The position numbers were made by a program, and so were the translations under genes. From positions 8,015-72,014 of the forward strand of contig DSCO01000057.1 of NCBI GenBank assembly GCA_011049045.1: DNA of 64,000 nucleotides. The letters are read 5' to 3'. Source of the stretch: Methanomicrobia archaeon (lineage in GTDB: Archaea > Halobacteriota > Syntropharchaeia > Alkanophagales > Methanospirareceae). The notes beneath the pieces are model-generated. The model was not told the DNA's origin. It ran no database searches and saw nothing but the letters and a program-made list of their open reading frames with translations. Below, piece after piece: positions 4,826 to 42,198 of this stretch (position 1 is the first letter of the stretch; every line of letters begins with the position of its first letter).

Positions 4826-6037
4826 ATGCGTGCTGATCTCCCTCACCGATCTACCACTATTGTCCTCATTGCGGCGCTCTGTGTCTTCAGCACGCAGTTC
4901 GGTGTTACGGTGATCGCACCGCTGCTCGGCGTATGGGTAGCGGCCTCGGCGGCGCCGTTTCTCGTTGCTGCAGTGATCTTCTCAGCGTTCACCATGGTGA
5001 GCACACCGCTCAATATCCCTGGCGGTATGCTCTCGGATCGCTGGGGGAGGAAGCCGTTGATTGTTGCGGGGCTCTCGCTCTACGCGCTCGCGTCGGCACT
5101 CTTCCCGTTCTCCACAGACCCCTACGATTGGATCTTTGTTCGCGCGATTCAGGGCGCAGGTGCAGGCTTGTTCTTCCCGGCAATCACCGCGTTACTGTCC
5201 GAGGTGACGAGTTCTGAGGAACGCGGGCGGGCGGTGGGCGTCTACAACATTGGTCTGGGGCTCGGGCTGGCGGTCGGTCCAGCATCGGGCGGCATCCTCT
5301 TTGATAACTATGGCCTCTACACGCCGTTCTTCGTCTGCGTTGTTTTCGCGCTCATCAGCGTTGTTCTCGTGGTTCTTTTTGTTGAGGAGCCCGGAGAGCG
5401 GGTGATTAGACGCGGCAGAGAGCTCGCATTACGCGAGTATGAACGTCGATTGCTGCTGCTTGCCGGTCTGGTTATTTTCTTCGGGATCGGTGTGGCCGCG
5501 ATAATGGGCGCGCTCTTCTCGCCCTATGCCCTCGCGCTCGAGCATCTCAAGCTCTCAGCGGGCTTTATTGGCATTATTCTTTCGATCATGTTCCTGGTGT
5601 TCGCGGTTTTGCAGCTCGGCCTGACGAGGTTGATGCAGCGGCTGGGTGCGCTCGTGCTCGCGCTGGCGGGCTTGATCCTCTGTTCCGGTGGTCTGCTGAT
5701 CCTCTATCAGGCAACCAGCGTGCTCGAACTCGTGCTTATGAGCGTCCTTCTCGGGACGGGCCTGGGCGCGGTCTCGCTGGGTACCTTGACGCTGGCCACG
5801 ACCGTAGCAGGAACGGTTGAGGGCGACCAGGAACGTCGGGGGAAGGTGATGGGCATCTATTACACGGTATTTTATGCGGGCCTGGGCGGCATACCGCTCC
5901 TTTGCGGCGCGCTTTCCGAGCTCGTCGGTGCGCGTGTGCTCTTCCTGGGGTACGCGGCGCTGCTGCTCGTGGTTACGGGCGTGGCGTGGCGGCTGGGGAT
6001 GGGCACGGGGACTTCACACGTGCGTGAACCCGCGTGA
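4826..6037 (+). CDS. MFS transporter
   Basis: ~404 aa, 12 predicted TM segments, MFS motif GxLSDRWGRK; ORF-track start at 4526 overlaps the convergent upstream gene, internal ATG at 4826 (MRADL…) chosen. Confidence 0.75.
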   Translation: MRADLPHRSTTIVLIAALCVFSTQFGVTVIAPLLGVWVAASAAPFLVAAVIFSAFTMVSTPLNIPGGMLSDRWGRKPLIVAGLSLYALASALFPFSTDPYDWIFVRAIQGAGAGLFFPAITALLSEVTSSEERGRAVGVYNIGLGLGLAVGPASGGILFDNYGLYTPFFVCVVFALISVVLVVLFVEEPGERVIRRGRELALREYERRLLLLAGLVIFFGIGVAAIMGALFSPYALALEHLKLSAGFIGIILSIMFLVFAVLQLGLTRLMQRLGALVLALAGLILCSGGLLILYQATSVLELVLMSVLLGTGLGAVSLGTLTLATTVAGTVEGDQERRGKVMGIYYTVFYAGLGGIPLLCGALSELVGARVLFLGYAALLLVVTGVAWRLGMGTGTSHVREPA

Positions 6038-6933: not shown

Positions 6934-8622
6934 ATGTTCCTCCAGTTCAAAGAAGAAGCGAGTAACCTGCTCAAGGCGGCATTAGAAGCAGCGTCGTATG
7001 ACCGTGGCGAGCTTACGGTGGATCTTGAGGAGAGCGAGCATGCCGATCTCGCATCACGAATTGCGTTTTCACTGGCGCGGTCGTACAGGAAGCCGCCCGC
7101 AGTCATCGCCGCGGAGATCGTTGCGCACGCCACTATCCCGCCGTCTTCGCTCATTAGGGAGGTCGTGGCCGTCGGACCGTATATCAACTGCTTCGTGAAC
7201 GAGTCGTTCCTGGCTGCGACGTTACAGTACGTGGAGACGGGCACAGTTCCTCCGGACAAGAACGAGCGGATCATCCTCGAGCATACCTCGGCGAACCCCG
7301 ACGGGCCCCTGCATATCGGCCATCTCAGAAATGCGGTCATCGGCGACACGCTGGTGCGTGTGCTGCGTCGCGCGGGCTATGAGGTGGAGCCGCAGTACTA
7401 TCTGAACGATATGGGGCGGCAGATCGCGGTCGTCGTCTGGGGCGCTGAACGGATGCGATATGACGAGACGAAGAAGGTCGACCATGCCGTTGCTGACGTT
7501 TATATCGCGGCGAACCGGATGCTGGCGGAGCAGAGCGAGTACCAGGAAGAGGTGGGCGCGCTCATGCGGCGTTACGAGGCGGGCGACGAGACGGTCATGC
7601 GCAACTATGATGCCGCGGTGCAGAAATGCCTTGCGGGCATTCAAGACTCGTTCTCGCGATTGAACATCCAGCCCGTGACGTACAAATACGAGAGCGAATT
7701 TGCGCGAAGTGGCGCGGTACGAGCGGTGATCGAGGAGTTGAAGCAGAAAGGGGAGATCAAACGCGAAGGTGAGGCGGTCTTGCTCCAGCTGGCGGGCATT
7801 GAAAAAGCGCTGGTGATACAGCGATCGGACGGGACCTCGTTGTACACCACCCGGGATCTGGCCTACCACCGCTGGAAGGGCGAGCACGGTGACCGGGTGA
7901 TCGATGTCTTTGGCAAGGACCATGAGCTGGTCTCGCAGCAGTTGCGTAAGGCGCTGGAGCTTCTGGGCGTGAAGGCGCCGGAGTTCGTCATCTTCGCGTT
8001 CGTCTCGCTTCCATCAGGCTCGCTCTCCACACGTGCGGGGCGCTACATAGCAGCCGACGATCTCATGGAGCAGATCGAGGAACGGTCCTTCGAAGCGGTC
8101 GCGAAACGGCGGACCGATCTGAGTGATCAGCGTAAACGCGAGATCGCACGCATGGTGGGTATCGGTGCTTTGCGGTACGATATCGTGAAGGTATCGCCTG
8201 ATAAACACATCGTCTTCGATCTCGACGAGGCGCTGGACATCGAGAAGAAGGGCGCACCGTTCATTCAGTACGCGCACACCCGCGCATGCAGCATCTTGCG
8301 TGCTGCGGAGGAACAAAACTATGCGGTACCCGAGCACTACAACGGTGCGGTCCTGCAGGAGCCGAGTGAGATCGCGTTGATCAAGAAGCTGGCGAAGTTC
8401 GATTATGTGGTCGAAGCGGCCGCCACTGATTTGAAGGTGCATCAGGTTGCCAAATACGCACGTGAGCTCGCGGAGCTGTTCAACCTGTTCTATAAGGATT
8501 GTCCGGTACTTACCGCAGTAGACGAACTACGGAACGCGCGATTGGTCCTCGTGGACTGCGCACGGATCGTGCTACGGGACGTGCTGGACGTGTTGGGTAT
8601 AGAAGCACCGGCTGAGATGTGA
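6934..8622 (+). CDS. argS: Arginyl-tRNA synthetase
   Basis: 562 aa; class I HIGH motif (PLHIGHLRNAVIGD), anticodon-binding C-terminal domain. Confidence 0.93.
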   Translation: MFLQFKEEASNLLKAALEAASYDRGELTVDLEESEHADLASRIAFSLARSYRKPPAVIAAEIVAHATIPPSSLIREVVAVGPYINCFVNESFLAATLQYVETGTVPPDKNERIILEHTSANPDGPLHIGHLRNAVIGDTLVRVLRRAGYEVEPQYYLNDMGRQIAVVVWGAERMRYDETKKVDHAVADVYIAANRMLAEQSEYQEEVGALMRRYEAGDETVMRNYDAAVQKCLAGIQDSFSRLNIQPVTYKYESEFARSGAVRAVIEELKQKGEIKREGEAVLLQLAGIEKALVIQRSDGTSLYTTRDLAYHRWKGEHGDRVIDVFGKDHELVSQQLRKALELLGVKAPEFVIFAFVSLPSGSLSTRAGRYIAADDLMEQIEERSFEAVAKRRTDLSDQRKREIARMVGIGALRYDIVKVSPDKHIVFDLDEALDIEKKGAPFIQYAHTRACSILRAAEEQNYAVPEHYNGAVLQEPSEIALIKKLAKFDYVVEAAATDLKVHQVAKYARELAELFNLFYKDCPVLTAVDELRNARLVLVDCARIVLRDVLDVLGIEAPAEM

Positions 8623-10106: not shown

Positions 10107-10426
10107 ATCTTCTTTTTCCGCTCCACCGCTAATTCCTCTTCCTCAGGTTGCAGCTAGTGTAGAGATTAAATCCCGGGTTTAAATCATTTTACCGGTTATT
10201 GGTGGAGCATGTCTTACTTCCCCCCGAGCCACACGCTTTTAGCCGCGAAACTGCCGCCTTCCGCGCGCTCATCCTGTTCACTCACTGCAGTATCTCCGAA
10301 TCTAAAACCATAGTAGGAAAACCCAAGCTGAACATCTGCTTTTCTGAGAAGAAAACGGTGAGGTGGATCTACTGCCACGGAACCCCGGATGTTTCAACGG
10401 CCTAGCACCTGATAGCTCACGGTTAC

Positions 10427-15336: not shown

Positions 15337-15360
15337 ATGGATGGATGGATGGATGGATGG
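15337..15360. repeat. (ATGG)6 tetranucleotide microsatellite
   Basis: atggatggatggatggatggatgg read directly; overlaps 3' end/trailer of tRNA-Ala. Confidence 0.9.
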
Positions 15361-31922: not shown

Positions 31923-32846
31923 TTACGTTTTTTCACCTCCATTTCCTGATAAGAACCATTCAGTGAGTTCGATAACGTTCTTCCGTCTGCCTGCATTCTT
32001 CTTGATGATCTGTCCGCGTTCAAGCGCGCGGAGGATACTGTTAAGCGAAGATTTCGGGATCTCCGTCTCGTGTCTGAGATCAGACTGCGTCATCTCGCCG
32101 TTATGCTTCAGCAACGCGTTTACAATGGCGCGCTCGCGATCCGTGAGCGTCTCCATGGTGCGTGCCATCGCCGGCGTTTGCTTTATTTTCATGCTCCTCA
32201 CGCGTGGCTTTTCCACCGGACCGGGCTCGCTTCCCAACCGCACCATAAGGAAGCCGACGCTCAGCATGAGGGAAACGATGGCGAGCAGCACGATGAGAAT
32301 AACATAGCCCGGATCGAAGGCGTTGACGCCCGTCGCTTCGGAGGGCGTGGTCAGCGGCTGCTGGTACGCGATCCACACACCTGGTCCCTGTACTTCGTAG
32401 CCGTGGAATTCCACCACGAGTGACTCGTTCGCGGTTGACACGAGATATTCGAGCTGATCCGAGCAGGTAATTCTACCCAAACTGATCGCGGGGGGCAGAT
32501 AGAAGACGGCCTGATAGGTGGAATAGTTAGCCGTGGTGGTGAAGGTGAGCATCCATCGCTCTCCTGACTTCTCGGTGAGCGCATGCGTGATGGCGTAGAG
32601 CTGCTGTGTCTCAATCTCATAGATATAGTCCGCGGTCTGGAGGAACGGGAGACTCTCAGGATCATTGACATAACCGATCACGAGCGCTTTACCGGTCTCG
32701 TCAACATAGATATCAAGAATGAGCTGGCTGGAGTAGCTTCCCGTATCGTTAAAGGCAAAGGAAAACCCGTCACTGGCAAGACCCGGGGTCGGGGTCGCTA
32801 TGGCTGTGAACAAAAGAACCAGGTACAGTATTCCTGCCGTTTTCAT
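31923..32846 (-). CDS. Membrane-anchored transcriptional regulator: extracellular domain + TM + cytoplasmic winged-HTH
   Basis: 307 aa; signal peptide, ~190-aa ectodomain, TM (GYVILIVLLAIVSLMLSVGFLMV), C-terminal wHTH (TDRERAIVNALLKHNGEMTQSDLRHETEIPKSSLNSILRALERGQIIKK). Confidence 0.6.
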   Translation of the reverse strand: MKTAGILYLVLLFTAIATPTPGLASDGFSFAFNDTGSYSSQLILDIYVDETGKALVIGYVNDPESLPFLQTADYIYEIETQQLYAITHALTEKSGERWMLTFTTTANYSTYQAVFYLPPAISLGRITCSDQLEYLVSTANESLVVEFHGYEVQGPGVWIAYQQPLTTPSEATGVNAFDPGYVILIVLLAIVSLMLSVGFLMVRLGSEPGPVEKPRVRSMKIKQTPAMARTMETLTDRERAIVNALLKHNGEMTQSDLRHETEIPKSSLNSILRALERGQIIKKNAGRRKNVIELTEWFLSGNGGEKT

Positions 32847-32950: not shown

Positions 32951-34213
32951 TCATTCGTATCGCAGCGCATCCACCGGCTTGAGCTTTGAGGCGCGATGGG
33001 CTGGAATCACCCCTGCGGCTACGCCAATGCCGACGGCCAGGAGGATCGCGTATACCAGCAGCATCGGGGTGATCTTCGTGGTCAGTTCGCCACCCATTCC
33101 CATCATCCGCATACCGAGCATCGGCAGTAATGACGAAATAGCAGCACCGAGGCAAATCCCTATGACGCCCCCGATGAGGCCGACTATTGCCGCATTTAAG
33201 AGGAAGATCATCATAATGTCACCGTTCTTCGCACCGATGGATTTCATGATCCCAATCTCCTTCGTCTTCTCCAGCACGGACGTGAACATCGTGTTTGCGA
33301 TACCCACGGACCCGACGAGCAACGAAACCGCGGCAATGGCCTCTAAGAACAAGCTCATTGTCTGTGTGACATCACTCATGGTCGCCTGCATAGCTTTTGC
33401 GGACGTCATCCTGAAATCTTCTTTACCTTCCGCAAGGTGCCGGAAGATCCGTAACTTCTCCTTTGCTTCTTCCATGATCTGCTCGACATCATCAGTGTTC
33501 GCGACCTTGATGGTAATCGTATCAAATTCAGCATCGCTAACGTCGTCCAGGACGTCTCGTGCAGCGTCAATGGGCATGATTATGGTACGGTCATTCCCAT
33601 CAAAACCGCCACTTTCTTCTAAGATGCCCACGATCTTGAATGATTTGCCCTCGATAGTGAGTACCCGGTTTACGGTAAGTGGTTGTTTGAACGTGTCTAC
33701 GGCTATGCTGCTGCCAAGGATGACGGCGTTATAGTCCGAGGCCCCGAGTAATCGGCCCGATGCCAGTTTAGCGGTGGTGATCTCTTTCCAGACCAGCGGG
33801 TCAACGCCTTCGATCGAAATGGTGGTCTTTTCACCGAGGTAATAGACCTCACCGGAGCCGGAAACGGTGCCGTGAATAGCGGCAATGCCGTCAATAGTCC
33901 GGAGTACCTGCACGTCTTTTTTCGTCAGGTCTTTGGCATCAGTAGCAGCAGCGGTTTCACCGCCTCCCGGCCCACCACCCGGCGGGCCACGGAACCCCGC
34001 AGCAGCACGCCCGCCGCCGGGAGAGATGGTGATGAGGTCCGCGCCGAGCCCGCCAAGGTGACTCTCGACATTCGCCTGCATGCCCTCACCGATGGACACG
34101 ATGGCAACGACGGCCGCGATCCCGATGACGATCCCGAGAATCGTCAGCCAGCTACGCAGCTTACTGTGGGCGATGATATTGAGCGCTAATTTGAGTGACT
34201 TGCTCGGTTTCAT
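32951..34213 (-). CDS. ABC transporter permease, FtsX/MacB family
   Basis: 420 aa; N-terminal TM, large periplasmic loop, C-terminal FtsX 3-TM bundle. Confidence 0.85.
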   Translation of the reverse strand: MKPSKSLKLALNIIAHSKLRSWLTILGIVIGIAAVVAIVSIGEGMQANVESHLGGLGADLITISPGGGRAAAGFRGPPGGGPGGGETAAATDAKDLTKKDVQVLRTIDGIAAIHGTVSGSGEVYYLGEKTTISIEGVDPLVWKEITTAKLASGRLLGASDYNAVILGSSIAVDTFKQPLTVNRVLTIEGKSFKIVGILEESGGFDGNDRTIIMPIDAARDVLDDVSDAEFDTITIKVANTDDVEQIMEEAKEKLRIFRHLAEGKEDFRMTSAKAMQATMSDVTQTMSLFLEAIAAVSLLVGSVGIANTMFTSVLEKTKEIGIMKSIGAKNGDIMMIFLLNAAIVGLIGGVIGICLGAAISSLLPMLGMRMMGMGGELTTKITPMLLVYAILLAVGIGVAAGVIPAHRASKLKPVDALRYE

Positions 34214-35646
34214 CGTTTCACTCGTTCGTTATTCTCGCGTGCAGATCTGATCAAGACCGCGTTCTTCGCTTTTCGTTTTTTTTTTATATACCGGAAAAAG
34301 AGCACGCCGGCACTGATGATCGCAACGAGCGCGAGTGCACCGATAACCGTGGTACTGTTCACGGCGCTCTGGTGCTGCCCTTGCGGGTACCTGCCGCCGG
34401 TGCCTGTAGCCGAAGTAGTCGTATCGGTACTCGCCGCCCGGAGCTGAACTGGCACGGCCTTCTCGAGTGTTTGCCGTACGCCGGTCGTGTCGGTGTACTC
34501 GATAGCGACCATCAGGTTAGGGCTCGTCGAGCTGTTTCGTGGCGAAAACTCCGCTCTCAGTCTCTCCCGGTCTTCCCCCGGGAATTCTGCCAGTTGGCTG
34601 TCTTCTGTGGTGCCCGGGATCCCGAACGCGGACGGGCCTGCGGCCGTTACCGCGAACGAGACGATCGTATAGTCTCCCTTGTCGAGGTTGCCAACGATCG
34701 AGGCGGCGCTACCCTGGGCGGTGAACTGATCTTGCGCAAGGATTTTCACGGTCACGGAATACGCAGGATTATTACCGGTATTCGCAACGTAGAGCGAGAC
34801 CTGACTACTTGAACTCTCGGAGACGATGATCTCAAAATCGGTACTGCCGCCGATGACGATGCCCGCGGTCGTGCTCATCGATCTCGAGCCACCGCGCTCG
34901 TCCTCGAACTCCAGGGCCAGGTCTAACCGGTACAGGCCGGCATCGGCACCCACATCGACGGCAACCAGATACTCGACGACGATGGATTCGCCGACGTCGA
35001 TGTAGCGGATGTGCTTCGTATTGTCGGAATGAACCGGCAGTATGACGCCGTTTGCTTCGGTCCATGAGAAGACCATATTCTCCAGGTGATACGAACCGAT
35101 ATTAGCGACGGTAAACCGGAGCGCAGTCAACTCCCCGGGCTTCAGCTCGGTCGGGGCGATGTCAGCGATATGGATGATCGCGCCCTGCGTTACCGTGAGC
35201 ATGAGCGAGTAGGCGACTTCGGGCATGGCCTCAGTAACCGTTTCCCCACCCGTGCTATAGGATTGACTATACGAGCAGGAGACCGGAATGGCATGGGACC
35301 CACTTGGCGCGCCCTTCGCGACACGAACGGTGACGGGCACGTCTCTGGAGCACCACCCGGAGATCGAGCCGGCATAGATGCTTGACGAGCCAACGACCGA
35401 GATATACTGACTTTCCTCGAAATTAAGCGTTACGTGCTTTGCATCGCAGGAACCTCCGTTCTTGAGGGTAACGGTCAGCGTTTTCGTCTCGCCGGGCAGG
35501 AGTTCTGTAGGCTTGACGTTTGTTATAACAACGTTTGCATCAGTGCCCGCGCTTAGTGGAGCAACGAGAGACGCGAGTATTGCCACGATACCACACAAAG
35601 CCAGTACCCTTTTCATGTTTTTTCTAGATACTAATTTCGTTATCAT
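34210..35646 (-). CDS. Large extracytoplasmic protein with tandem CARDB/DUF11-like β-sandwich repeats and C-terminal TM anchor
   Basis: 478 aa; signal peptide; two similar modules (VVITNVKPTELLPGETKTLTVTLKNGG / IIHIADIAPTELKPGELTALRFTVANIG); C-terminal TM + basic tail; start overlaps upstream gene (ATGA). Confidence 0.6.
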   Translation of the reverse strand: MITKLVSRKNMKRVLALCGIVAILASLVAPLSAGTDANVVITNVKPTELLPGETKTLTVTLKNGGSCDAKHVTLNFEESQYISVVGSSSIYAGSISGWCSRDVPVTVRVAKGAPSGSHAIPVSCSYSQSYSTGGETVTEAMPEVAYSLMLTVTQGAIIHIADIAPTELKPGELTALRFTVANIGSYHLENMVFSWTEANGVILPVHSDNTKHIRYIDVGESIVVEYLVAVDVGADAGLYRLDLALEFEDERGGSRSMSTTAGIVIGGSTDFEIIVSESSSSQVSLYVANTGNNPAYSVTVKILAQDQFTAQGSAASIVGNLDKGDYTIVSFAVTAAGPSAFGIPGTTEDSQLAEFPGEDRERLRAEFSPRNSSTSPNLMVAIEYTDTTGVRQTLEKAVPVQLRAASTDTTTSATGTGGRYPQGQHQSAVNSTTVIGALALVAIISAGVLFFRYIKKKRKAKNAVLIRSARENNERVKR

Positions 35647-35663
35647 TTACCTTTTACCTCCTT

Positions 35664-35963
35664 TTATATTACTAATTCAGCTAATTCTTCGGGTGTTCTG
35701 CCAGATACCTTCTTTATTGTATAGTCCGCTAATTTCAACCCATCGTTCTTATCTAGGTCTGGATAATACAGCACCCGAATCGCTTCTCTTATAGTATCAG
35801 CGGCGTTATGCAGGTTATCACTCCCATTTGGTTTGTTTTTCTGTATCTGCATATCGTAGCAGTGCGCTTTGTTTCCACAAAGTTCACACAACCCGTACCG
35901 TATCGGATAGCTACTCACCGGACACCCCAGGAAGTAATTAACGCAATCTTCACAAATCAGCAT
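35664..35963 (-). CDS. Small Cys-rich (zinc-ribbon-like) protein
   Basis: 100 aa from MLICEDCVNYFLGCP…CELCGNKAHC; located between ABC ATPase and CARDB-like gene. Confidence 0.4.
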   Translation of the reverse strand: MLICEDCVNYFLGCPVSSYPIRYGLCELCGNKAHCYDMQIQKNKPNGSDNLHNAADTIREAIRVLYYPDLDKNDGLKLADYTIKKVSGRTPEELAELVI

Positions 35964-35973
35964 GGTTCTCACC

Positions 35974-36687
35974 TCAGTTGTTCGTATGGTTATGCTCGAT
36001 GCGCTCGATTTGTCCGTCTTTGAGGTACACCACCCGTTCCGCACGCGTAACCAGGTAGAAATCGTGCGTGACCAGAATGATCGTTTTACTATCGTTCCCG
36101 TGTACCTCGCTCAACAAATGCATGATGAATTCGCCGGTCTTGCTGTCCAGATTACCGGTAGGCTCGTCGGCGAGTATGATGTCAGGATCAACGGCCAGAG
36201 CACGCGAGATGGCCACACGCTGCTGCTGCCCGCCTGAGAGTTGAGCGGGCAGGTGGTGCACGCGATCGCCCAATCCAACCAGCTCGAGCAGCTCGAACGC
36301 GGTCTCCCGTGCCTCTGCGGAGTCGACATCCTGGAATTCCAGGGGCAGCATCACATTCTCGAGCGCGGTTAACGTCGGTATCAGGTTGAACTGCTGGAAT
36401 ACGAATCCGATCTTCTTGCCACGTATCTGCGCCAATTGCGACTCGTGGAACCGCGCGATATCAGCACCGTCCAGCCGTATTGTACCCTTACTCGGCAGAT
36501 CCAGACAGCCAATGAGGTTCATCATCGTGCTCTTGCCGCTGCCACTGACACCGGCGATGGCGAGGAATTCGCCGCGCTCTATCGTCAGATCAATGCCCCG
36601 GAGCGCCTGCACCTGAACGTCACCCATCTGATAGATTTTCCAGACTGCTTCCAGCTGGATGACCGCATCAGTACCCGGGGTGCTCAT
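35974..36687 (-). CDS. ABC transporter ATP-binding protein (MacB/LolD-like)
   Basis: Walker [10 protein letters not shown], signature [14 protein letters not shown], Walker [12 protein letters not shown]; GGAGGTG SD before ATG 36687. Confidence 0.9.
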
Positions 36688-36889
36688 AGCCCACCTCCGA
36701 GCGGAGCTGCACGCACGCCGCGATGACCATGAGCGCCTCGACACGAGGTGGTGAACTGCGGTGCTCCCATCGGTGCTCTTTCAGCAGTTGCTGCTGCGTT
36801 CGCTTTCATCTTCGCTTCACGTTTTTTTCCCGGCTCTTTTTTTTCAGCTATCTTCGGTGCTGTTTCCCAGAGGGGGATTAGAAATAAAC

Positions 36890-36960
36890 TATACATAAGT
36901 CTTCCTTTTTTACCAATTTCCACCCAAATCTGTACCAAATTCGCGGAACCTCCGTTTCAC
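36890..36960 (-). promoter_or_regulatory. Conserved promoter/operator element, copy 1 (upstream of ABC exporter operon)
   Basis: Minus-strand GAATTTGGTACAGATTTGGGTGGAAATTGGTAAAAAAGGAAGACTTATGTATAGTTTATTT; shared ~70-nt element present three times in 2 kb. Confidence 0.5.
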
Positions 36961-36999
36961 TCGATCATGTAGGCCACGGCTTCACCGATCGTCGTAACG

Positions 37000-37131
37000 T
37001 TACATGCTCAGACCGTCACTAACGCCATACGCATCCGTCGCGTATTGCTGCCGGTAAGCGTTGTACGAGGCAGATGTCGAGACGAGCAAGAGTATAGCGA
37101 GTACAGCAATGATTACGTTTTTACGGTCCAT
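37000..37131 (-). CDS. Small secreted peptide (43 aa precursor)
   Basis: MDRKNVIIAVLAILLLVSTSASYNAYRQQYATDAYGVSDGLSM; GGAGGT SD 8 nt upstream; conserved element copy 2 ~65 nt upstream; not in supplied ORF track (below length cutoff). Confidence 0.4.
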   Translation of the reverse strand: MDRKNVIIAVLAILLLVSTSASYNAYRQQYATDAYGVSDGLSM

Positions 37132-37189
37132 TTAGTTCCATTACCTCCATTCGTTTCTTTTTATTTCGTGTGTCTCCACGAGTACCAGT

Positions 37190-37270
37190 ATAGAATAAGC
37201 TAATCATAAGCGCTTCTTTTTTACCAATTTCCACCCAAATCGTTCACAAATTCGTTTGCAACTGTTTAGT
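37190..37270 (-). promoter_or_regulatory. Conserved promoter/operator element, copy 2
   Basis: Minus-strand GAATTTGTGAACGATTTGGGTGGAAATTGGTAAAAAAGAAGCGCTTATGATTAGCTTATTC. Confidence 0.5.
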
Positions 37271-37300
37271 AAGCGTTAGTAAGCACGTTTCAGAGCGCAG

Positions 37301-37621
37301 CTAGTCGGGTTTCAGGCTGATATAGAGCAGAATAGCTAGTGCCGCAAATTCGAACCATTGGGACACGATCTTGAGCAAGCCCAGGGCATTGAGGCGGTGA
37401 AAACCCCACACCAGATGGATAAACGGGTGCGAGGTGACCGCTTGCACCAGCAGGAGAATAACGAAGCCGATCAAGCCGAGCGCGAACTTCGATTTGATCT
37501 GCTCGTAGTTCTTGATATAAAGGGCGAGCAGACACAGTAACAGTATGACGTTCCCGAGCGTAATCAGCGCATGAAAATCGATAATCACTGTCTCTGGCGG
37601 CGGCATAGGCATTGGTGACAT
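37301..37621 (-). CDS. Small 3-TM membrane protein, paralogue A
   Basis: ~106 aa from MSPMPMPPPETV; ~60% identical to 38697..39011 (…NYEQIKSKFALGLI.FV.LL.VQA…LLYISLKPD). Confidence 0.55.
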   Translation of the reverse strand: MSPMPMPPPETVIIDFHALITLGNVILLLCLLALYIKNYEQIKSKFALGLIGFVILLLVQAVTSHPFIHLVWGFHRLNALGLLKIVSQWFEFAALAILLYISLKPD

Positions 37622-37825
37622 TGTTCCCCCCTCGGTCTGCACGTATCTATTACCCGCAGCATACTTAAAACACTCCTCCATCCCCTGGTTCTCATCATCG
37701 TCGTCGTGCTAATACCACGTCACGTAAAAGCGGAAAAAAGGGTGCGTGGGAGCGAGCAGAGGAGAACCCACGCACCATACTCCTTTTCTCCCTTATGGCG
37801 ACTATACTATACTGTCTCTGTTCAC

Positions 37826-38536
37826 CTATTCCTCCAGATCTGGAGAGTTGAACGGGCCCTCCAGCTCTGGAGAGTTGAACGGGCATTCACCGAATCCCGG
37901 TCCGCGTTGGAATCCCAGCATCTGTCGGCCCACAGGTCCGCGCGGACCGTGGCCACCGTCACCCGCGAATTGGGGCCCTGCTGGACATGAGATACCGTAC
38001 TGCTCGAACAGTTCCTGGTGGAATTCCTGTATCTGCTGCTGTATTGCTTCGCGCTCTTCATCCGTCAGGTTGGCACCGCAGTGTCTCGGGAACCCCGGTC
38101 TCCCCTCGTCCGGCAAGTCGATACCGTACTGCTCAGCCAGTTCGAGCCGGAACTGTTGCATTTTCTGCTGCAGTTCCTGTCGCTCCTCGTCTGTCAGGGC
38201 GATGCCGTACTGCTGGGCGAGTTCCTGCTGGAACTGCTGCAGTTCCTGTCGTTGCTCCTGTTGCTTCTCCCGGAGTCGGTTCTGCATCTCCTGTCTTTCT
38301 TCGTCCGTCAGGGTGACGCCGTACTGCTCAGCCAGCTGCAGCCGGAACTGCTCCATCTGCTGGTGCATCCCTTGCCGCTCCTCGTCTGTCAACTGCCCCA
38401 GTCCACAGTGACCGCCGAACCATCCGCCTTTTTCCCGTAATGCGGTATCCTCGTTTGTAATCTGTGCGGAGACCATGGCGAAGGCTGTTGCGATGAGTGC
38501 CAGCGCCAGAATACCTGCGATCAGTTTTCGTTTCAT
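37826..38536 (-). CDS. Secreted repeat protein with CpxP/Spy-like LTxxQ-type motifs
   Basis: Starts MKRKLIAGILALALIATAFA (signal peptide) after AGGAGGTG SD; five ~33-aa repeats LTDEERQEMQ…LAEQYG…; Cys-containing C-terminal tail with PFNSPELEG duplication. Confidence 0.65.
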   Translation of the reverse strand: MKRKLIAGILALALIATAFAMVSAQITNEDTALREKGGWFGGHCGLGQLTDEERQGMHQQMEQFRLQLAEQYGVTLTDEERQEMQNRLREKQQEQRQELQQFQQELAQQYGIALTDEERQELQQKMQQFRLELAEQYGIDLPDEGRPGFPRHCGANLTDEEREAIQQQIQEFHQELFEQYGISCPAGPQFAGDGGHGPRGPVGRQMLGFQRGPGFGECPFNSPELEGPFNSPDLEE

Positions 38537-38597
38537 CTTCGTGCGTTGCACCTCCTATTTTTTCGTTTCACGATGTGTTGCCACGGTTATTAGATCC

Positions 38598-38672
38598 AAA
38601 TAACTAGACATAAGCATTTGTTCTTTCCCAAATTCCACCCGATTGTGGCCCAAATTCAGCCAGAAAGTCGTG
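38598..38672 (-). promoter_or_regulatory. Conserved promoter/operator element, copy 3
   Basis: Minus-strand GAATTTGGGCCACAATCGGGTGGAATTTGGGAAAGAACAAATGCTTATGTCTAGTTATTTGG. Confidence 0.5.
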
Positions 38673-38696: not shown

Positions 38697-39011
38697 TCAG
38701 TCGGGCTTGAGGCTGATGTACAGCAGTACCGCCAGTGCCACGAATTCGAAGAGATCAGGCACGATGGTGAGCAGGCCCATAGCGTGAATATGGCGGAAGC
38801 CCCGCACGGCGGGCAGGAAGGGATTGGTGGTGAAGGCCTGCACGATGAGCAGGACGACAAAGGCGATCAAGCCGAGCGCGAACTTCGATTTGATCTGCTC
38901 GTAGTTCCTCGCGTAGATGAACAGCAACGCGAGCAGGAGGAGCACGTTGCCCAGCGCGATGAGCGCCTGGAGATACATGAGCCACAGGTGTGGCACCGGT
39001 TGTGGTGGCAT
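38697..39011 (-). CDS. Small 3-TM membrane protein, paralogue B
   Basis: 104 aa; paralogue of 37301..37621. Confidence 0.55.
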   Translation of the reverse strand: MPPQPVPHLWLMYLQALIALGNVLLLLALLFIYARNYEQIKSKFALGLIAFVVLLIVQAFTTNPFLPAVRGFRHIHAMGLLTIVPDLFEFVALAVLLYISLKPD

Positions 39012-39028: not shown

Positions 39029-39334
39029 TTACTCCTTCTCGCCCCTGCTCTTAAATTTGTTCCATACCTTGTCCAGATACTCTTTAAAGACCTCATACTC
39101 GCTCTCCATGCCTTCGGACAGGAAATATGCCGTGCCATAGCCGCCTCCTGCTTCGGTGATCACTTTGTTCTCCAGCAGGACCTTGAGATGGTGGCGCACC
39201 GTTTTGTAATCCAGATCCAGTATTTCTGAGAGCTGATTGGCGTTGTACGGTCGTTCATTCAAGGCGCGTAGTATCCGTGCACGATTCACCCCGCCTTTCG
39301 TACCCACGATCAGCCACCAGATTACCCGTCGCAT
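39029..39334 (-). CDS. Winged-HTH transcriptional regulator
   Basis: 101 aa; NRARILRALNERPYNANQLSEILDLDYKTVRHHLKVLLENKVI HTH; first gene of the minus-strand locus. Confidence 0.6.
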   Translation of the reverse strand: MRRVIWWLIVGTKGGVNRARILRALNERPYNANQLSEILDLDYKTVRHHLKVLLENKVITEAGGGYGTAYFLSEGMESEYEVFKEYLDKVWNKFKSRGEKE

Positions 39335-39441: not shown

Positions 39442-42198
39442 CTATACACGCGTTTTTCCAAACCGCTTTGTCAGGTACTTCTCGAGCTCGATGATAAAGA
39501 AGATGGGGAGCGCGATCGCGAACATAGTGAGCCAGTATTCAGCGGGCAGCGGTGCGGTGCCCAGAGGGTTGATGCCGATGACAGGTGGTGCATAAATGAC
39601 CGTGAACTGTAGAAAGAGCGTGAGTGCGACGCCGATGAGCACCCACTTGTTGGAGACGGGGCTGAAGGAGAACGCGGATTCCGAGATCGAGCGAGCGGTA
39701 AAGAGATAGCAGATATGGACGATCATGACGGTGGTGAAGACTGCGGTCTGAGCCTTCATCAGCACCTCAGGGTCGCCGACCCAGCTATTGATCGCAAAGA
39801 AGTACATGAAGAAACCGGTAAGGGTCGTGAAGAGCGAGACGACCCCGACTTTCCGAAGGAACGGTGGATCGGTGATCCGCTCTTTGGGGTCGCGTGGTGG
39901 CCGGAGGAGCAATCCTTTCTCCTTTGGCTCCTTGATTATCGGGAGCGCGAGCGCGATGGCAGCGAGGAGATTGATCCAGAGGATCTGAACGGGCGCGATC
40001 GGGAGACCCCCGCCGAGGTGCGGATTGAAGATGGCAATGAATGGCGCAAGCAGAATGGCGCCCAGGATCAGGAGTGCCTGGCCGCCATTGGTGGGCAGCA
40101 AGTACAGAATAACCTTCCGGATGTTGTCGTAAACGTATCGGCCCTCTTCGACGGCGGCCACGATGCTGGCGAAGTTATCGTCGGTGAGAATGATGTCGGC
40201 CGCGCCCTTGCTCACTTCAGTACCGCTGATACCCATGGCGATCCCGATGTCCGCAGCTTTGAGCGCGGGCGCATCGTTGACGCCATCGCCGGTGACGGCG
40301 GTGATATGGCCAAGCAGCTGCAACTGCCGGGTGATCCGGAACTTGTGCTCGGGCGCGGCCCTGGCATAGATGGAGACGGAACCCACGAGCTCGAAGAGCT
40401 CATCATCGCTTATTCGCTCGAGCTCTGCACCGGTCAAGACGCGATCTGATTCGGTGGCGATGCCGATCTGCTGCGCAATCGCTTTCGCGGTCTGCGCATG
40501 GTCACCGGTGATCATAACGACGCGAATGCCCGCGCGTTTGCATGCGGCCACGGCATCGATGACCTCATCCCGAGGTGGATCACTCATCCCCTGAAGTCCG
40601 AGGAAGGTCAGTCCCGTCACGTCCTGAGGCTCGAGCACCTTCTTCTCTCGCGGCACGCGTTTATACGCCATGCCCAGAACGCGCAAGGCGTTGCCGGCGA
40701 ACTCCTCAGCCGCACGCGCTATTTCATCACGACGCAGCGGCCGCTCCCTATCCTCGATCAGTTGATTCTCGCACATGGCGAGGATCCGTTCTGGCGCGCC
40801 TTTGACGTAGATGTGGTTACCGTCAGTGCCTTCCTGCAAGGTGGCCATGTACTGCTGCTCGGATGAGAAGGGTATCTCGTCCAGTTTCGCACGCTCCGTG
40901 GCGAGTCCAGCTTTCCGCGCTGAGACGACCAGGGCGCCTTCGGTGGGATCGCCGATGATACTGTACCGCTTGGTTTCGCGGTCATACTCGAGCCCGGCAT
41001 TATTGCAGAGGTAGCCTGCTTTCAGGGTTTCGCGTAACTCATCATGCCCTTTTTTGGGCTCAATGGTACAATCTTCGCACAAGAACTCGCCTTTAGGCTC
41101 GTAGCCACTACCCGTTACGCTGAACCGCCCTCCCCCGGCGTAGATGCGGGAGACCGTCATCTGGTTCCGGGTGAGTGTGCCGGTCTTATCAGAGCATATG
41201 ACGGTGGTAACGCCGAGTGTCTCGGCTGCGGGCAGGTTCTTGACGAGCGCGTGCCGGCGTGCCATGGTCATAGCGCCGAAGGCCAGCGTGATCGTGAGAA
41301 TAGCGGGTAAACCCTCGGGAATGGCGGCGACCGCGAGCGATACGGAGGCGAGGAAGGAATAGACGGGCGGGAACCCGAAGATGACGGCCAGTATGAAGTT
41401 GAGCGCGGCAATGGTGAGGATGGTGATGACCAGCAAGCGGGTGAAGTGCGCCATCTTGCGGGTGAGTGGCGTGGCCAACTCTTCGGTCTCCTGTGTCAAT
41501 TCCGCGATACGACCGATCTCAGCATCCTTACCGGTACCCACGACAATCCCCCGTCCCGAGCCGCGGGTGATGAACGTGCTGCTGAAGGCCATGCAGCGCT
41601 GATCCGCGGGTGGTAGACCTGGCCGGGCGATGGGTTCGGTGGTTTTCGAGACGGGAACGGACTCGCCGGTGAGCGTCGCTTCGTCTGCATAGAGGTTTTT
41701 GGAGCGGAAGAGCCGGAGATCCGCGGGGACTTTATCTCCCTCCTCGAGCAGCACGATATCGCCCGGCACCAACTCGCGTGCAGGAATGCGCATTTCCCTG
41801 CGGCCGCGGATCACCCTGCATTCGAGCGACATCAACTTCCTGAGCGCCTCAGCGGCTGCATCTGCTTTCTTCTCCTGAATGAAGCCGATGATCGTATTGG
41901 CGAAGACGACTGCAAGGATGACCACGGTGTCCATCAGCATATCGAGGAAGGTGGTGGTGAGCGCAGCAGCGAGCAGTACGTAGATAAGCGAGTTGTGGAA
42001 CTGCAAAATGAACTTGGTGAACGAGCTGCGTTTCTTGATGGGCAATTCGTTATACCCGTACTGCTGGAGCCGTGCCTGCGCCTCAGCGGCTGTAAGCCCC
42101 TCGGGATTCGCTGCTAGTTGCTCAAAAACCTGCTCGACCGTCTGCTGATACCAGCTCTTATCGTGTGACACCGCGAACTCCCCTCTCTCACCACCCAT
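39442..42198 (-). CDS. P-type ATPase, P2 (Ca2+/cation-transporting) type
   Basis: 918 aa; DKTGTLT phosphorylation motif, TGES, MITGDH, GDGVNDAPALK, 10 TM. Confidence 0.9.
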   Translation of the reverse strand: MGGERGEFAVSHDKSWYQQTVEQVFEQLAANPEGLTAAEAQARLQQYGYNELPIKKRSSFTKFILQFHNSLIYVLLAAALTTTFLDMLMDTVVILAVVFANTIIGFIQEKKADAAAEALRKLMSLECRVIRGRREMRIPARELVPGDIVLLEEGDKVPADLRLFRSKNLYADEATLTGESVPVSKTTEPIARPGLPPADQRCMAFSSTFITRGSGRGIVVGTGKDAEIGRIAELTQETEELATPLTRKMAHFTRLLVITILTIAALNFILAVIFGFPPVYSFLASVSLAVAAIPEGLPAILTITLAFGAMTMARRHALVKNLPAAETLGVTTVICSDKTGTLTRNQMTVSRIYAGGGRFSVTGSGYEPKGEFLCEDCTIEPKKGHDELRETLKAGYLCNNAGLEYDRETKRYSIIGDPTEGALVVSARKAGLATERAKLDEIPFSSEQQYMATLQEGTDGNHIYVKGAPERILAMCENQLIEDRERPLRRDEIARAAEEFAGNALRVLGMAYKRVPREKKVLEPQDVTGLTFLGLQGMSDPPRDEVIDAVAACKRAGIRVVMITGDHAQTAKAIAQQIGIATESDRVLTGAELERISDDELFELVGSVSIYARAAPEHKFRITRQLQLLGHITAVTGDGVNDAPALKAADIGIAMGISGTEVSKGAADIILTDDNFASIVAAVEEGRYVYDNIRKVILYLLPTNGGQALLILGAILLAPFIAIFNPHLGGGLPIAPVQILWINLLAAIALALPIIKEPKEKGLLLRPPRDPKERITDPPFLRKVGVVSLFTTLTGFFMYFFAINSWVGDPEVLMKAQTAVFTTVMIVHICYLFTARSISESAFSFSPVSNKWVLIGVALTLFLQFTVIYAPPVIGINPLGTAPLPAEYWLTMFAIALPIFFIIELEKYLTKRFGKTRV

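What the first reader, a model, noticed from the sequence alone, without database searches (positions are those of the whole stretch)
36890..38672. A ~70-nt promoter/operator element repeated three times, each upstream of a different secreted/export transcription unit
Three minus-strand segments align over ~65 nt:
- 36960..36890: GAATTTGGTACAGATTTGGGTGGAAATTGGTAAAAAAGGAAGACTTATGTATAGTTTATTT
- 37270..37190: GAATTTGTGAACGATTTGGGTGGAAATTGGTAAAAAAGAAGCGCTTATGATTAGCTTATTC
- 38672..38598: GAATTTGGGCCACAATCGGGTGGAATTTGGGAAAGAACAAATGCTTATGTCTAGTTATTTGG

Each lies 65-200 nt upstream of a start codon with a strong GGAGG Shine-Dalgarno: the ABC exporter ATPase, the 43-aa secreted peptide, and the LTxxQ-repeat periplasmic protein.

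The 5' half contains three imperfect direct repeats of AATTTGG (AATTTGG / ATTTGGG / AAATTGG). That looks like a multimeric transcription-factor site placed upstream of a TATA-like CTTATG-TAG-TTTATT core. Such tight conservation of intergenic DNA within 2 kb implies a dedicated regulon. It is probably controlled by the adjacent wHTH regulator (39029..39334) and/or the membrane-anchored wHTH sensor (31923..32846).
Basis: seen in the sequence. Interest (0 to 1): 0.68.

Follow-up and report, generated by a model that had tools for sequence, protein, structure and literature searches.

The report
Archaeal promoter with phased 11-bp repeats
Three copies of a conserved archaeal promoter, each preceded by a row of 11-base repeats that probably bind the regulator encoded next door, appear to switch on or off a small set of cell-envelope maintenance and export genes in methane-oxidising archaea, a control system that does not seem to have been described.

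Summary
Three minus-strand copies of a ~75-nt element sit at 36866-36943, 37176-37254 and 38581-38658. They are 74-82% identical, each scores nhmmer E~1e-19, and nothing else in the 64 kb matches.

Each copy has three direct repeats of nnRATTTGGGT in exact 11-bp register. These are followed by a purine-rich BRE-like stretch, an AT-rich TATA-like core (CTTATG...) and a conserved CCGTGG about 30 nt further on.

The same architecture, with 2 to 12 or more units, recurs in over 30 loci of ANME-1/Methanophagales, ANME-2 and more distant archaea. It nearly always lies directly downstream of a conserved two-gene operon: an ArsR-fold wHTH plus the 3-TM protein DUF8036. It lies upstream of secreted or export genes: a Q/E-rich repeat protein, a MacB-type ABC operon, a Lon_C protease, or thioredoxin-DsbD-Msr genes.

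It is not a dispersed repeat, a structured RNA or an Rfam family.

Best reading: a promoter plus tandem operator for the adjacent ArsR-like factor, with DUF8036 as membrane partner. Together they would govern a small local envelope-maintenance regulon.

Protein binding, start sites and the sign of regulation are inferred, not shown.

The parts
38626..38658 (-). Copy 3 operator array: three 11-bp units (TGAATTTGGGC CACAATCGGGT GGAATTTGGGA)
   Evidence: Units are in register with 26 non-redundant instances. Picked up by the array scan. Begins 38 nt after the DUF8036a stop codon.
38581..38625 (-). Copy 3 core promoter: purine-rich BRE-like AAGAACAAATG (38615-38625), AT-rich TATA-like CTTATGTC... 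(from 38614), conserved CCGTGG (38581-38586; possible initiator)
   Evidence: Alignment of instances. Distant relatives carry CTTATATA or CTTTATAT at the homologous position.
37222..37254 (-). Copy 2 operator array (CGAATTTGTGA ACGATTTGGGT GGAAATTGGTA)
37176..37221 (-). Copy 2 core promoter (AAAAAGAAGCG / CTTATGATTAG... / TCGTGG)
36911..36943 (-). Copy 1 operator array (CGAATTTGGTA CAGATTTGGGT GGAAATTGGTA)
36866..36910 (-). Copy 1 core promoter (AAAAAGGAAGA / CTTATGTATAG... / CTGGG)
39029..39334 (-). ArsR-fold wHTH gene (101 aa): candidate factor binding the arrays
   Evidence: Pfam HTH_5 E=7.6e-11. AF2 model pLDDT 92, with CzrA/SmtB/AspA as top structural matches. No Cys, and no His in the C-terminal helix. 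Sits next to an element in at least 12 of 14 pattern-seeded loci.
38697..39011 (-). DUF8036 small 3-TM membrane protein (104 aa), co-operonic with the wHTH: candidate membrane partner or sensor
   Evidence: PF26119 annotation. The pairing with the wHTH is conserved down to 33-41% identity.
37826..38536 (-). Target 1: secreted Q/E-rich protein with LTDEER repeats (236 aa, signal peptide)
   Evidence: Proteins at the equivalent position in relatives give sub-threshold PF13801 hits.
37734..37776 (-). G+C-rich hairpin plus T-run after target 1 (terminator-like)
   Evidence: Read directly from the sequence.
37301..37681 (-). DUF8036 paralogue (ORF of 126 aa; the likely start at 37621 gives 106 aa)
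   Evidence: The same paralogue follows the secreted protein in L002, L003, L015 and L020.
37000..37131 (-). 43-codon ORF downstream of copy 2: N-terminal remnant of a Lon_C-domain membrane protease gene
   Evidence: tblastn of the L002 267-aa Lon_C protein gives 22/33 identical residues, E=2e-7, covering residues 1-33 only.
36684..36809 (-). Conserved 41-codon upstream ORF whose stop overlaps the ABC ATPase start (ATGA)
   Evidence: Present in 7 loci with the C-terminal motif CRGAHS..GVR.PLGG.L.
32951..36687 (-). Target 2: operon of ABC ATPase (35974-36687), 99-aa Cys-rich protein (35664-35963), CARDB-domain protein (34210-35646) and MacB/FtsX permease (32951-34213)
   Evidence: Pfam and NCBIfam. 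The same operon lies behind an element in L002, L003, L010, L013 and L047.
31923..32846 (-). DUF7343 membrane-anchored wHTH: considered as regulator, but not conserved with the element
   Evidence: Pfam. A homologue occurs only in L010 among the loci examined.

Best explanation
Each copy is an archaeal promoter fused to a tandem operator.

Shown. Two to six units of nnRATTTGGGT (three per copy in the window) are repeated head-to-tail every 11 bp. That is one helical turn, so all sites face the same side of the DNA. The array ends 11 nt before a conserved CTTA(T/A)G. Those 11 nt are purine-rich (GAAA[A/C]GAAA[A/G]G) and BRE-like. An AT-rich TATA-like core follows, then a conserved CCGTGG about 30 nt downstream. 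The module always points toward the downstream gene. It is conserved across ANME-1, ANME-2 and more distant archaea. It travels with a two-gene operon encoding an ArsR-fold winged-helix protein and the 3-TM membrane protein DUF8036.

Inferred. The ArsR-like protein binds the units cooperatively as a multimer and controls recruitment of TFB/TBP. Archaeal factors bound upstream of BRE usually activate, so activation is the likelier sign, but repression is a serious alternative. The factor lacks metal ligands, so its activity is presumably set by the membrane partner DUF8036, which would relay the state of the envelope by tethering or releasing the factor.

Targets in the window: a secreted Q/E-rich repeat protein (followed by a second DUF8036 copy, giving a possible feedback loop), a now-decayed Lon_C protease gene, and a small-ORF-ABC-CARDB-MacB export operon. 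Together these form a small, local regulon for extracytoplasmic protein maintenance and export.
For: The copies are real and non-random.

Across 26 non-redundant instances, 97 units lie in perfect 11-bp register. Information content is 1.4-2.0 bits at the ATTTGG core. TRF independently reports period 11.

The genome-wide pattern scan returned 14 archaeal loci, all in the same cluster. At least 12 of the 14 have the ArsR-DUF8036 pair immediately upstream.

Distant pairs keep the arrangement while the targets change. L024/L025 have 2 units plus the canonical CTTATATA or CTTTATAT, leading to thioredoxin-DsbD-AhpC-MsrB-MsrA. L026 has 5 units. ANME-2 has 5 units starting at the DUF8036 stop codon. 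Metagenome loci with ArsR at 46-54% identity still carry arrays, one of them with 12 or more units.

The recognition helix (Y43 K44 T45 H49 invariant; R47 H48 nearly so) is conserved across 42 homologues, in parallel with the invariant ATTTGG core.

In ANME-1 proper the ATG lies 38 nt after CTTAAG, which places the TATA box at or next to that motif.

The factor has the ArsR/SmtB fold (pLDDT 92; CzrA/SmtB TM 0.6-0.69). AspA, an archaeal ArsR-fold protein crystallised on DNA, is also a top match.

Archaeal activators typically bind upstream of BRE and go with weak BRE/TATA elements. EarA uses four sites immediately upstream of BRE (PMC5512572).
Against: No binding, start-site or expression data exist; every source is an uncultured MAG or metagenome contig.

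ArsR/SmtB dimers normally recognise inverted repeats and act as repressors. The direct repeats here would need an unusual head-to-tail or spreading mode.

In L024/L025 the last unit ends 2-3 nt from a strong TATA box and so overlaps the BRE, which fits repression better.

The exact TATA box is ambiguous in the Methanophagales 'secreted protein' class, which has a better AATATATAA 19 nt further downstream.

No array precedes the regulator's own operon, so there is no autoregulatory hint.

The genome scan used a strict pattern, so degenerate sites elsewhere in these genomes could have been missed.

The envelope-stress reading rests on weak annotations of the targets: sub-threshold PF13801 hits and no PDB sequence match.
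Confidence: 0.5

Rival explanations
1. Same promoter, same operator and same ArsR-like factor, but the factor is a repressor. It coats the array and occludes or destabilises TFB/TBP at the adjoining BRE/TATA. An envelope signal makes DUF8036 sequester it at the membrane, as SdpI does with SdpR, which derepresses the targets.
For: The ArsR/SmtB family consists overwhelmingly of repressors (established knowledge), and the fold match is to CzrA, SmtB, CadC and BigR. In L024/L025 the proximal unit overlaps the BRE position of a canonical TATA box. SdpR/SdpI is a precedent for an ArsR repressor plus a membrane partner encoded in one operon, including 3-TM SdpI forms (PMC2910880). A second DUF8036 copy downstream of an array-controlled gene would then give SdpI-like positive feedback.
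Against: In Methanophagales and in the window the array stops 11 nt upstream of the TATA-like core, so it lies upstream of the BRE. That is the position typical of archaeal activators (PMC5512572). The CTTATG/CTTAAG cores there are weak, as expected for activator-dependent promoters. No operator precedes the regulator's own operon, unlike autorepressors such as SdpR.
Confidence: 0.3
2. The arrays are bound by a different factor. Candidates are the DUF7343 membrane-anchored wHTH at 31923-32846 (a ToxR/CadC-like one-component regulator) or an unlinked regulator. In this reading the ArsR-DUF8036 operon is merely a neighbour.
For: Membrane-tethered winged-helix regulators and OmpR/PhoB-type domains do bind direct repeats with 10-11 bp phasing (established knowledge). 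DUF7343 lies at the end of the ABC operon in the window and in L010.
Against: No DUF7343 homologue was found in any other element-bearing locus: L002, L003, the ANME-1 loci, ANME-2, L024-26. ArsR-DUF8036 co-occurs with the array across all clades down to about 45% identity.
Confidence: 0.1
3. The phased ATTT tracts act mainly through intrinsic DNA curvature, as a static bend upstream of the promoter, with no dedicated sequence-specific factor.
For: Short A/T tracts repeated about once per helical turn are known to bend DNA (established knowledge). The 11-bp phasing is exact.
Against: The G residues of the unit are as strongly conserved as the A/T tract: positions 8-9 carry 1.5-1.9 bits. Curvature alone does not require that. 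The strict linkage to one regulator operon is also left unexplained.
Confidence: 0.05
4. The similarity only reflects recent local duplication, or a transcribed RNA element (5'-UTR, sRNA or terminator), with no operator function.
For: Copies 2 and 3 each follow a DUF8036 paralogue. Copies 1 and 2 look like a local duplication: relative L010 has a single hybrid element at this place.
Against: The element is conserved across orders while its flanks diverge, and unit number varies in register. RNA folding z-scores are -0.15, +0.37 and -0.33. No Rfam family matches the region. Tandem 11-mers of variable number are not an RNA-structure signature.
Confidence: 0.04

Closest known systems
EarA-dependent fla promoter of Methanococcus maripaludis (PMC5512572)
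   Same: Several short copies of one motif lie immediately upstream of the BRE/TATA of a euryarchaeal promoter. Transcription there depends on a dedicated factor.
   Different: The EarA sites are four 6-bp motifs. Here the sites are 2 to 12 or more units of an 11-bp repeat in strict helical phase. The candidate factor is ArsR-fold and is encoded with a membrane protein. The targets are secreted or export genes rather than the archaellum. Nothing here has been tested experimentally.
TFB-RF1 (PF1088) and Ptr2 activators of Pyrococcus / Methanocaldococcus (PMC5937170; cited in PMC5512572)
   Same: The factor site lies upstream of a weak BRE/TATA. TFB-RF1 is encoded next to, and activates, a putative ABC transporter operon.
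   Different: Those are single or dual sites rather than phased arrays, and the protein families differ. No membrane partner is involved.
SdpR-SdpI of Bacillus subtilis (PMC2910880)
   Same: An ArsR-family regulator gene lies directly upstream of, and co-oriented with, a small multi-pass membrane protein gene. In that system the membrane protein controls the regulator by sequestering it.
   Different: No sequence membership: the SdpR model scores 26 bits against a cut-off of 100, and there is no SdpI Pfam hit. No operator precedes the pair's own operon. The host is archaeal, the targets differ, and the operator is made of direct repeats.
PhoB/OmpR-type pho boxes and ToxR/CadC sites (established knowledge)
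   Same: Winged-helix proteins bind head-to-tail to direct repeats spaced 10-11 bp apart, upstream of the core promoter, and recruit the transcription machinery.
   Different: Those are bacterial response-regulator domains acting on sigma-70 promoters. Here the fold is ArsR and the promoter is an archaeal BRE/TATA type.
AspA, the pNOB8 centromere-binding protein of Sulfolobus (PDB 4rs8, 5k5q)
   Same: An archaeal ArsR-fold protein, ranked 2nd and 20th among structural matches (TM 0.63-0.64). From my own knowledge, it multimerises along DNA.
   Different: AspA serves plasmid partition and nucleates on a palindrome. Sequence identity is only 23%.
Bacterial envelope stress regulons (Cpx/Bae/Zra with CpxP/Spy/ZraP; MsrPQ/thiol-repair clusters)
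   Same: The output set looks analogous: a secreted helical Q/E-rich protein, a protease, a MacB-type exporter and, in distant relatives, thioredoxin-DsbD-Msr repair genes.
   Different: Signalling there runs through two-component systems. Membership of the secreted protein in the CpxP/Spy family is not established.

Membership tests
Archaeal regulated promoter with upstream factor sites (EarA/Ptr2/TFB-RF1 type) | Factor-binding motifs located immediately upstream of BRE/TATA and oriented with the gene | tested here: met
   The array ends 11 nt before CTTAWG in 26 of 26 instances. All arrays lie on the coding strand of the downstream gene.
Archaeal regulated promoter with upstream factor sites (EarA/Ptr2/TFB-RF1 type) | BRE/TATA about 25-38 nt upstream of a mapped transcription start | not testable with these tools
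   No start-site data exist. The sequence is compatible: the ATG lies 38 nt after CTTAAG in ANME-1, and L024/L025 carry the canonical CTTATATA or CTTTATAT at the homologous position. A second AT-rich candidate exists in one class.
Archaeal regulated promoter with upstream factor sites (EarA/Ptr2/TFB-RF1 type) | Demonstrated factor binding and factor-dependent transcription | not testable with these tools
   Requires EMSA or footprinting and in vitro or in vivo transcription.
ArsR/SmtB metalloregulators | Winged-helix ArsR fold (alpha1-alpha5 with beta wing) | tested here: met
   Pfam HTH_5 E=7.6e-11. AF2 pLDDT 92 with H-H-H-H-E-E-H topology. Foldseek top matches are CzrA, SmtB and CadC at TM 0.60-0.69.
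ArsR/SmtB metalloregulators | Metal or thiol sensing ligands (alpha3/alpha3N Cys, or alpha5 Asp/His/Glu) | tested here: not met
   The protein has no cysteine. Its only histidines are H48 and H49 in the recognition helix, and the C-terminal helix has none. The NCBIfam HTH_metalloreg model scores 31 bits against a cut-off of 55.
ArsR/SmtB metalloregulators | Imperfect inverted-repeat operator overlapping the regulator's own promoter (autorepression) | tested here: not met
   The candidate sites are direct repeats. No array or unit pair lies within 220 nt upstream of the ArsR gene in about 20 loci.
SdpR/SdpI-type regulator-membrane partner module | ArsR-family gene immediately upstream of, and co-oriented with, a small multi-pass membrane protein gene | tested here: met
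   The gap is 17 nt in the window and 2 nt in ANME-1. The pairing is conserved in all loci examined.
SdpR/SdpI-type regulator-membrane partner module | Sequence membership in the SdpR and SdpI families | tested here: not met
   The SdpR model NF033789 scores 26 bits against a cut-off of 100. The DUF8036 protein gives no SdpI hit in Pfam.
SdpR/SdpI-type regulator-membrane partner module | The membrane protein sequesters the regulator in response to an external signal | not testable with these tools
   Needs interaction and localisation assays.
Dispersed repeat / MITE | Many copies at unrelated sites, with terminal inverted repeats | tested here: not met
   There are 3 copies in 64 kb, all within one cluster. 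The scan of 185,579 genomes gave 14 archaeal loci, all in the same gene context, at most 2 contigs per genome. No inverted arms bracket the copies.
Structured RNA (Rfam family, riboswitch, sRNA) | Match to a covariance model, or folding energy below that of shuffles | tested here: not met
   Rfam at gathering thresholds finds only two tRNAs in the window. Folding z-scores are -0.15, +0.37 and -0.33.
CpxP/Spy/ZraP (LTxxQ, PF13801/PF07813) for the secreted target | Pfam match above the gathering score, or a sequence match to solved family members | tested here: inconclusive
   The window protein has no such hit. Five proteins at the equivalent position in relatives hit PF13801 at 16.6-27.9 bits against a cut-off of 29.2. 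A profile search against PDB sequences finds no Spy, CpxP or ZraP. The repeat motif is LTDEER, not LTxxQ.

The most novel reading that the evidence does not exclude
The arrays would be the DNA signature of an undescribed archaeal envelope-stress signalling system. An ArsR-fold factor without metal ligands is controlled by a 3-TM membrane partner (DUF8036). It polymerises head-to-tail on 11-bp phased direct repeats, a binding mode not known for this fold in gene regulation. In this way it tunes extracytoplasmic chaperone, protease, exporter and thiol-repair genes. The number of units (2 to 12 or more) would set promoter sensitivity. The system would be common to ANME-1, ANME-2 and related methane-cycling archaea.
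Probability: 0.35. Interest if true: 0.75.

Novelty: new variant of a known kind. Interest (0 to 1): 0.6.

Why it matters
Almost nothing is known about gene regulation in ANME archaea, and dedicated envelope or extracytoplasmic stress responses have hardly been defined in any archaeon.

This module offers a compact, testable system: one small soluble factor, one small membrane protein, and a simple repeated DNA site whose copy number varies naturally. It could be reconstituted in vitro or in Methanosarcina.

It would also show how an ArsR-fold protein reads direct repeats. And it gives a sequence signature, the ATTTGGGT array plus a BRE/TATA core, for annotating the regulon in metagenomes.

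No paper in the searched library mentions DUF8036.

Tried and rejected
(1) Rfam scan and RNA folding of the copies found no family and no excess stability. An RNA element was rejected.

(2) Metagenome scan with an array-only pattern, ATTTGGGYN3ATTTGGGYN3ATTT. Of the 120 loci, 59 were one unrelated element found largely in human-gut metagenome contigs (GGGCACCATTTGGGCACCATTTAC), and many others were iteron-like repeats. Only 7 loci had ArsR/DUF8036 context. The bare array is therefore not specific outside archaea, and this scan could not define the regulon.

(3) tRNA upstream regions did not yield a clear local TATA consensus for calibration.

(4) MM2440-MM2441 of Methanosarcina mazei (PMC3510493) was considered as a possible described homologue. 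The gene order is reversed and no link could be made.

(5) A search for autoregulatory arrays upstream of the ArsR gene found none.

(6) A fourth two-unit match at 52891 lies inside a 474-aa ORF on the opposite strand and has no promoter core. It was rejected as chance.

(7) Sequence and profile searches to place the secreted repeat protein in the CpxP/Spy family were inconclusive.

(8) A possible inverted half-site (CCAAA...TTTGG) at the distal end of some arrays occurs in only one subclade and was not pursued (read from the sequences printed).
Full report
OBSERVATION

On the minus strand, three segments share a conserved block: 36883-36943, 37194-37254 and 38598-38658. They are 82% and 74% identical to the reference copy, and the block extends to about 75 nt in a MAFFT alignment. 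A profile of the three copies finds only these sites in the 64-kb window (E about 1e-19 each; next hit E=2.3). A 21-mer shared by copies 1 and 2 is expected 0 times in shuffles.

ANATOMY

When all instances are aligned from the invariant CTTA(T/A)G, the 5' half resolves into direct repeats of an 11-bp unit, nnRATTTGGGT, in exact register.

- The window copies carry three units each.
- Relatives carry 2 to 6 units: 26 non-redundant instances, 97 units in total. Information content is 1.4-2.0 bits at A-T-T-T-G-G.
- One metagenome locus, L119, carries at least 12 units.
- TRF independently reports a period of 11.
- In the window, a register-aware scan finds 3-unit arrays only at the three sites, against 0.05 expected. 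A fourth, 2-unit match at 52891 lies inside an ORF and is chance.

The array ends 11 nt before CTTA(T/A)G. Those 11 nt are purine-rich, GAAA(A/C)GAAA(A/G)G, resembling a BRE. An AT-rich stretch of about 25 nt follows, then a conserved CCGTGG at about +29.

In ANME-1 proper, the start codon of the downstream signal-peptide protein lies only 38 nt after CTTAAG. In distant relatives the homologous position reads CTTATATA or CTTTATAT. The TATA box is therefore at or next to CTTATG.

In one class, a better AATATATAA lies 19 nt further downstream. The exact TATA box and start site cannot be fixed without 5'-end data.

CONTEXT IN THE WINDOW

Gene order on the minus strand:

1. P-type ATPase
2. ArsR-fold wHTH (39029-39334)
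3. DUF8036 3-TM protein (38697-39011)
4. COPY 3
5. Secreted Q/E-rich LTDEER-repeat protein (37826-38536)
6. Hairpin plus T-run
7. DUF8036 paralogue
8. COPY 2
9. 43-codon ORF
10. COPY 1
11. 41-codon upstream ORF
12. ABC ATPase, 99-aa protein, CARDB protein, MacB/FtsX permease
13. DUF7343 membrane wHTH

The 43-codon ORF matches only residues 1-33 of a 267-aa Lon_C-domain protein that is intact in relative L002. It is a gene remnant, not a secreted peptide.

Relative L010 has a single element between the DUF8036 paralogue and the ABC operon. Copies 1 and 2 therefore bracket a decayed gene. L010 looks like the product of recombination between them (inference).

CONSERVATION AND LINKAGE

The source is an ANME-1/Methanophagales-like archaeon, judging by the homologues named and the source contig.

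- Syntenic loci L002 and L003 carry the element at equivalent places: before the secreted protein, before the ABC operon, and before a second secreted protein.
- A degenerate pattern spanning one unit, the BRE-like stretch and CTTAWG was scanned over one genome for each of 185,579 species. It returned 16 loci.
- Fourteen of these are Methanophagales or related archaea. Two are bacterial hits without repeats, taken as chance.
- In at least 12 of the 14 archaeal loci, the ArsR-DUF8036 pair lies immediately upstream of an element. The other two are cut by contig ends. No genome gave more than two contigs.
- More distant DUF8036 or ArsR homologues keep the arrangement. L024/L025 (DUF8036 41-46% identical) have 2 units plus a canonical TATA box, leading to thioredoxin-DsbD-AhpC-MsrB-MsrA. 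L026 has 5 units. ANME-2 loci L027-L029 have 5 units starting at the DUF8036 stop codon, followed by a small secreted protein.
- DUF7343 appears only in L010.
- No array precedes the regulator operon itself.

The element therefore belongs to the downstream promoter. It is not dispersed, and it co-inherits with ArsR-DUF8036.

THE CANDIDATE FACTOR

The 101-aa protein hits HTH_5 and folds confidently (pLDDT 92) into an ArsR/SmtB topology. Its top structural matches are CzrA, SmtB, CadC, HlyU and the archaeal DNA-coating protein AspA.

It has no cysteine and no histidine outside the recognition helix, so the canonical metal sites are absent. Its recognition-helix residues are invariant across 42 homologues, in parallel with the invariant ATTTGG core.

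The family is large, with 1712 hits at E no greater than 1e-5, and it includes ANME-2 and Methanosarcinales. The best PDB sequence match is only Phr (2p4w, E=0.006).

MECHANISM

Shown: a conserved promoter-proximal array of phased direct repeats, linked to one regulator operon and to secreted or export genes.

Inferred: the ArsR-like protein binds the units cooperatively on one DNA face and controls TFB/TBP recruitment. DUF8036 couples its activity to the state of the envelope.

Two points favour activation:
- The array lies upstream of the BRE.
- The CTTATG/CTTAAG cores are weak. This matches the general rule and the EarA precedent (PMC5512572).

Three points favour repression:
- The ArsR family consists largely of repressors.
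- The proximal unit overlaps the BRE position in L024/L025.
- SdpR/SdpI is a precedent for an ArsR repressor with a membrane partner (PMC2910880).

I put activation at about 0.5 and repression at about 0.3. A different binder, curvature alone, or a non-functional or RNA origin are minor rivals.

COMPARISON WITH KNOWN SYSTEMS AND NOVELTY

The kind of element is known: an archaeal promoter with upstream factor sites. This version has not been described in the searched library. It combines helically phased 11-bp direct repeats of variable number, an ArsR-fold factor without sensing ligands, an obligate 3-TM partner of unknown function, and an extracytoplasmic maintenance regulon in ANME archaea. 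DUF8036 has 0 papers.

It fails two defining features of metal-sensing ArsR/SmtB systems. It also fails sequence membership in SdpR/SdpI (see the membership tests). I classify it as a new variant of a known kind.

LIMITS

- All evidence is comparative.
- The targets' functions rest on weak annotation.
- The array-only metagenome scan was swamped by unrelated repeats.
- The strict genome pattern may have missed degenerate sites.

Noticed in passing
window 37000-37131 (-): The 43-codon ORF is the N-terminal signal-anchor (22/33 identical residues) of a 267-aa Lon_C-domain protein that is intact in L002 (9141-9944). The rest of the gene is absent from the window, so this is a gene remnant flanked by two element copies.
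   Followed up: yes
window 36684-36809 (-); L002 ~10191-10307, also L003, L008, L010, L013, L020: A conserved 37-41-codon upstream ORF precedes the ABC ATPase gene, with its stop overlapping the ATPase start (ATGA). The C-terminal motif CRGAHS..GVR.PLGG.L is kept in 7 loci, and indels come in multiples of 3. It may be a small protein or a leader peptide of the exporter operon.
   Followed up: partly
window 38864-38907 and 37468-37511 (-): The two DUF8036 paralogues are 67% identical overall at the nucleotide level but share a perfectly identical 44-nt stretch (expected longest run about 11). It encodes the loop NYEQIKSKFALGLI between TM1 and TM2. This suggests gene conversion or constraint at the nucleotide level.
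   Followed up: partly
window 37831-37884: A 27-nt tandem duplication (96% identical) at the 3' end of the secreted repeat-protein gene duplicates the peptide GPFNSP(E/D)LE.
   Followed up: no
window 37734-37776 (-): A G+C-rich hairpin followed by TTTTTT lies between the secreted-protein gene and the DUF8036 paralogue. It looks like an intrinsic terminator, which is unusual for an archaeon, and could make read-through into the paralogue partial.
   Followed up: no
window 37255-37300 (-); L002 ~8319-8372, L020 ~2849-2911 and ~4075-4128, L010, L015: The ~45-nt spacer between the DUF8036 stop codon and the first unit is itself conserved in several relatives (…AAAGCGTTAA[A/C]AGCTCACCAAACGGCTCCAATCG). 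In the window it contains a 10-nt tandem CGCTTACTAA x2 (37266-37284). This may be a second site or a 3'-end signal.
   Followed up: no
L024 5368-8667; L025 598-2230: Distant ArsR-DUF8036 modules with a 2-unit array drive a cluster of secreted thioredoxin, DsbD/CcdA, AhpC/redoxin, MsrB and MsrA. This points to extracytoplasmic oxidative protein repair as another output of the same regulator family.
   Followed up: partly
L119 ~5725-5870: A metagenome locus with a divergent ArsR-DUF8036 pair (54% and 39% identity) carries an array of at least 12 near-perfect GTAATTTGGGT units. Unit number can evidently expand greatly.
   Followed up: partly
L030, L033, L035 and 56 other loci: An unrelated, highly conserved element found largely in human-gut metagenome contigs contains GGGATTTGGGCACCATTTGGGCACCATTTACCG. 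It was recovered 59 times among the 120 loci returned and looks like an iteron or origin-type repeat of a widespread mobile element.
   Followed up: no
window 39442-42198 (-) and L002, L003, L015, L020, L023: A 918-aa P-type cation ATPase lies immediately upstream of the ArsR-DUF8036 operon in six loci (72-91% identity). No array was found in front of it.
   Followed up: no
window 15340-15357 (-): tRNA-Ala is followed directly by a (CCAT)n tetranucleotide run.
   Followed up: no
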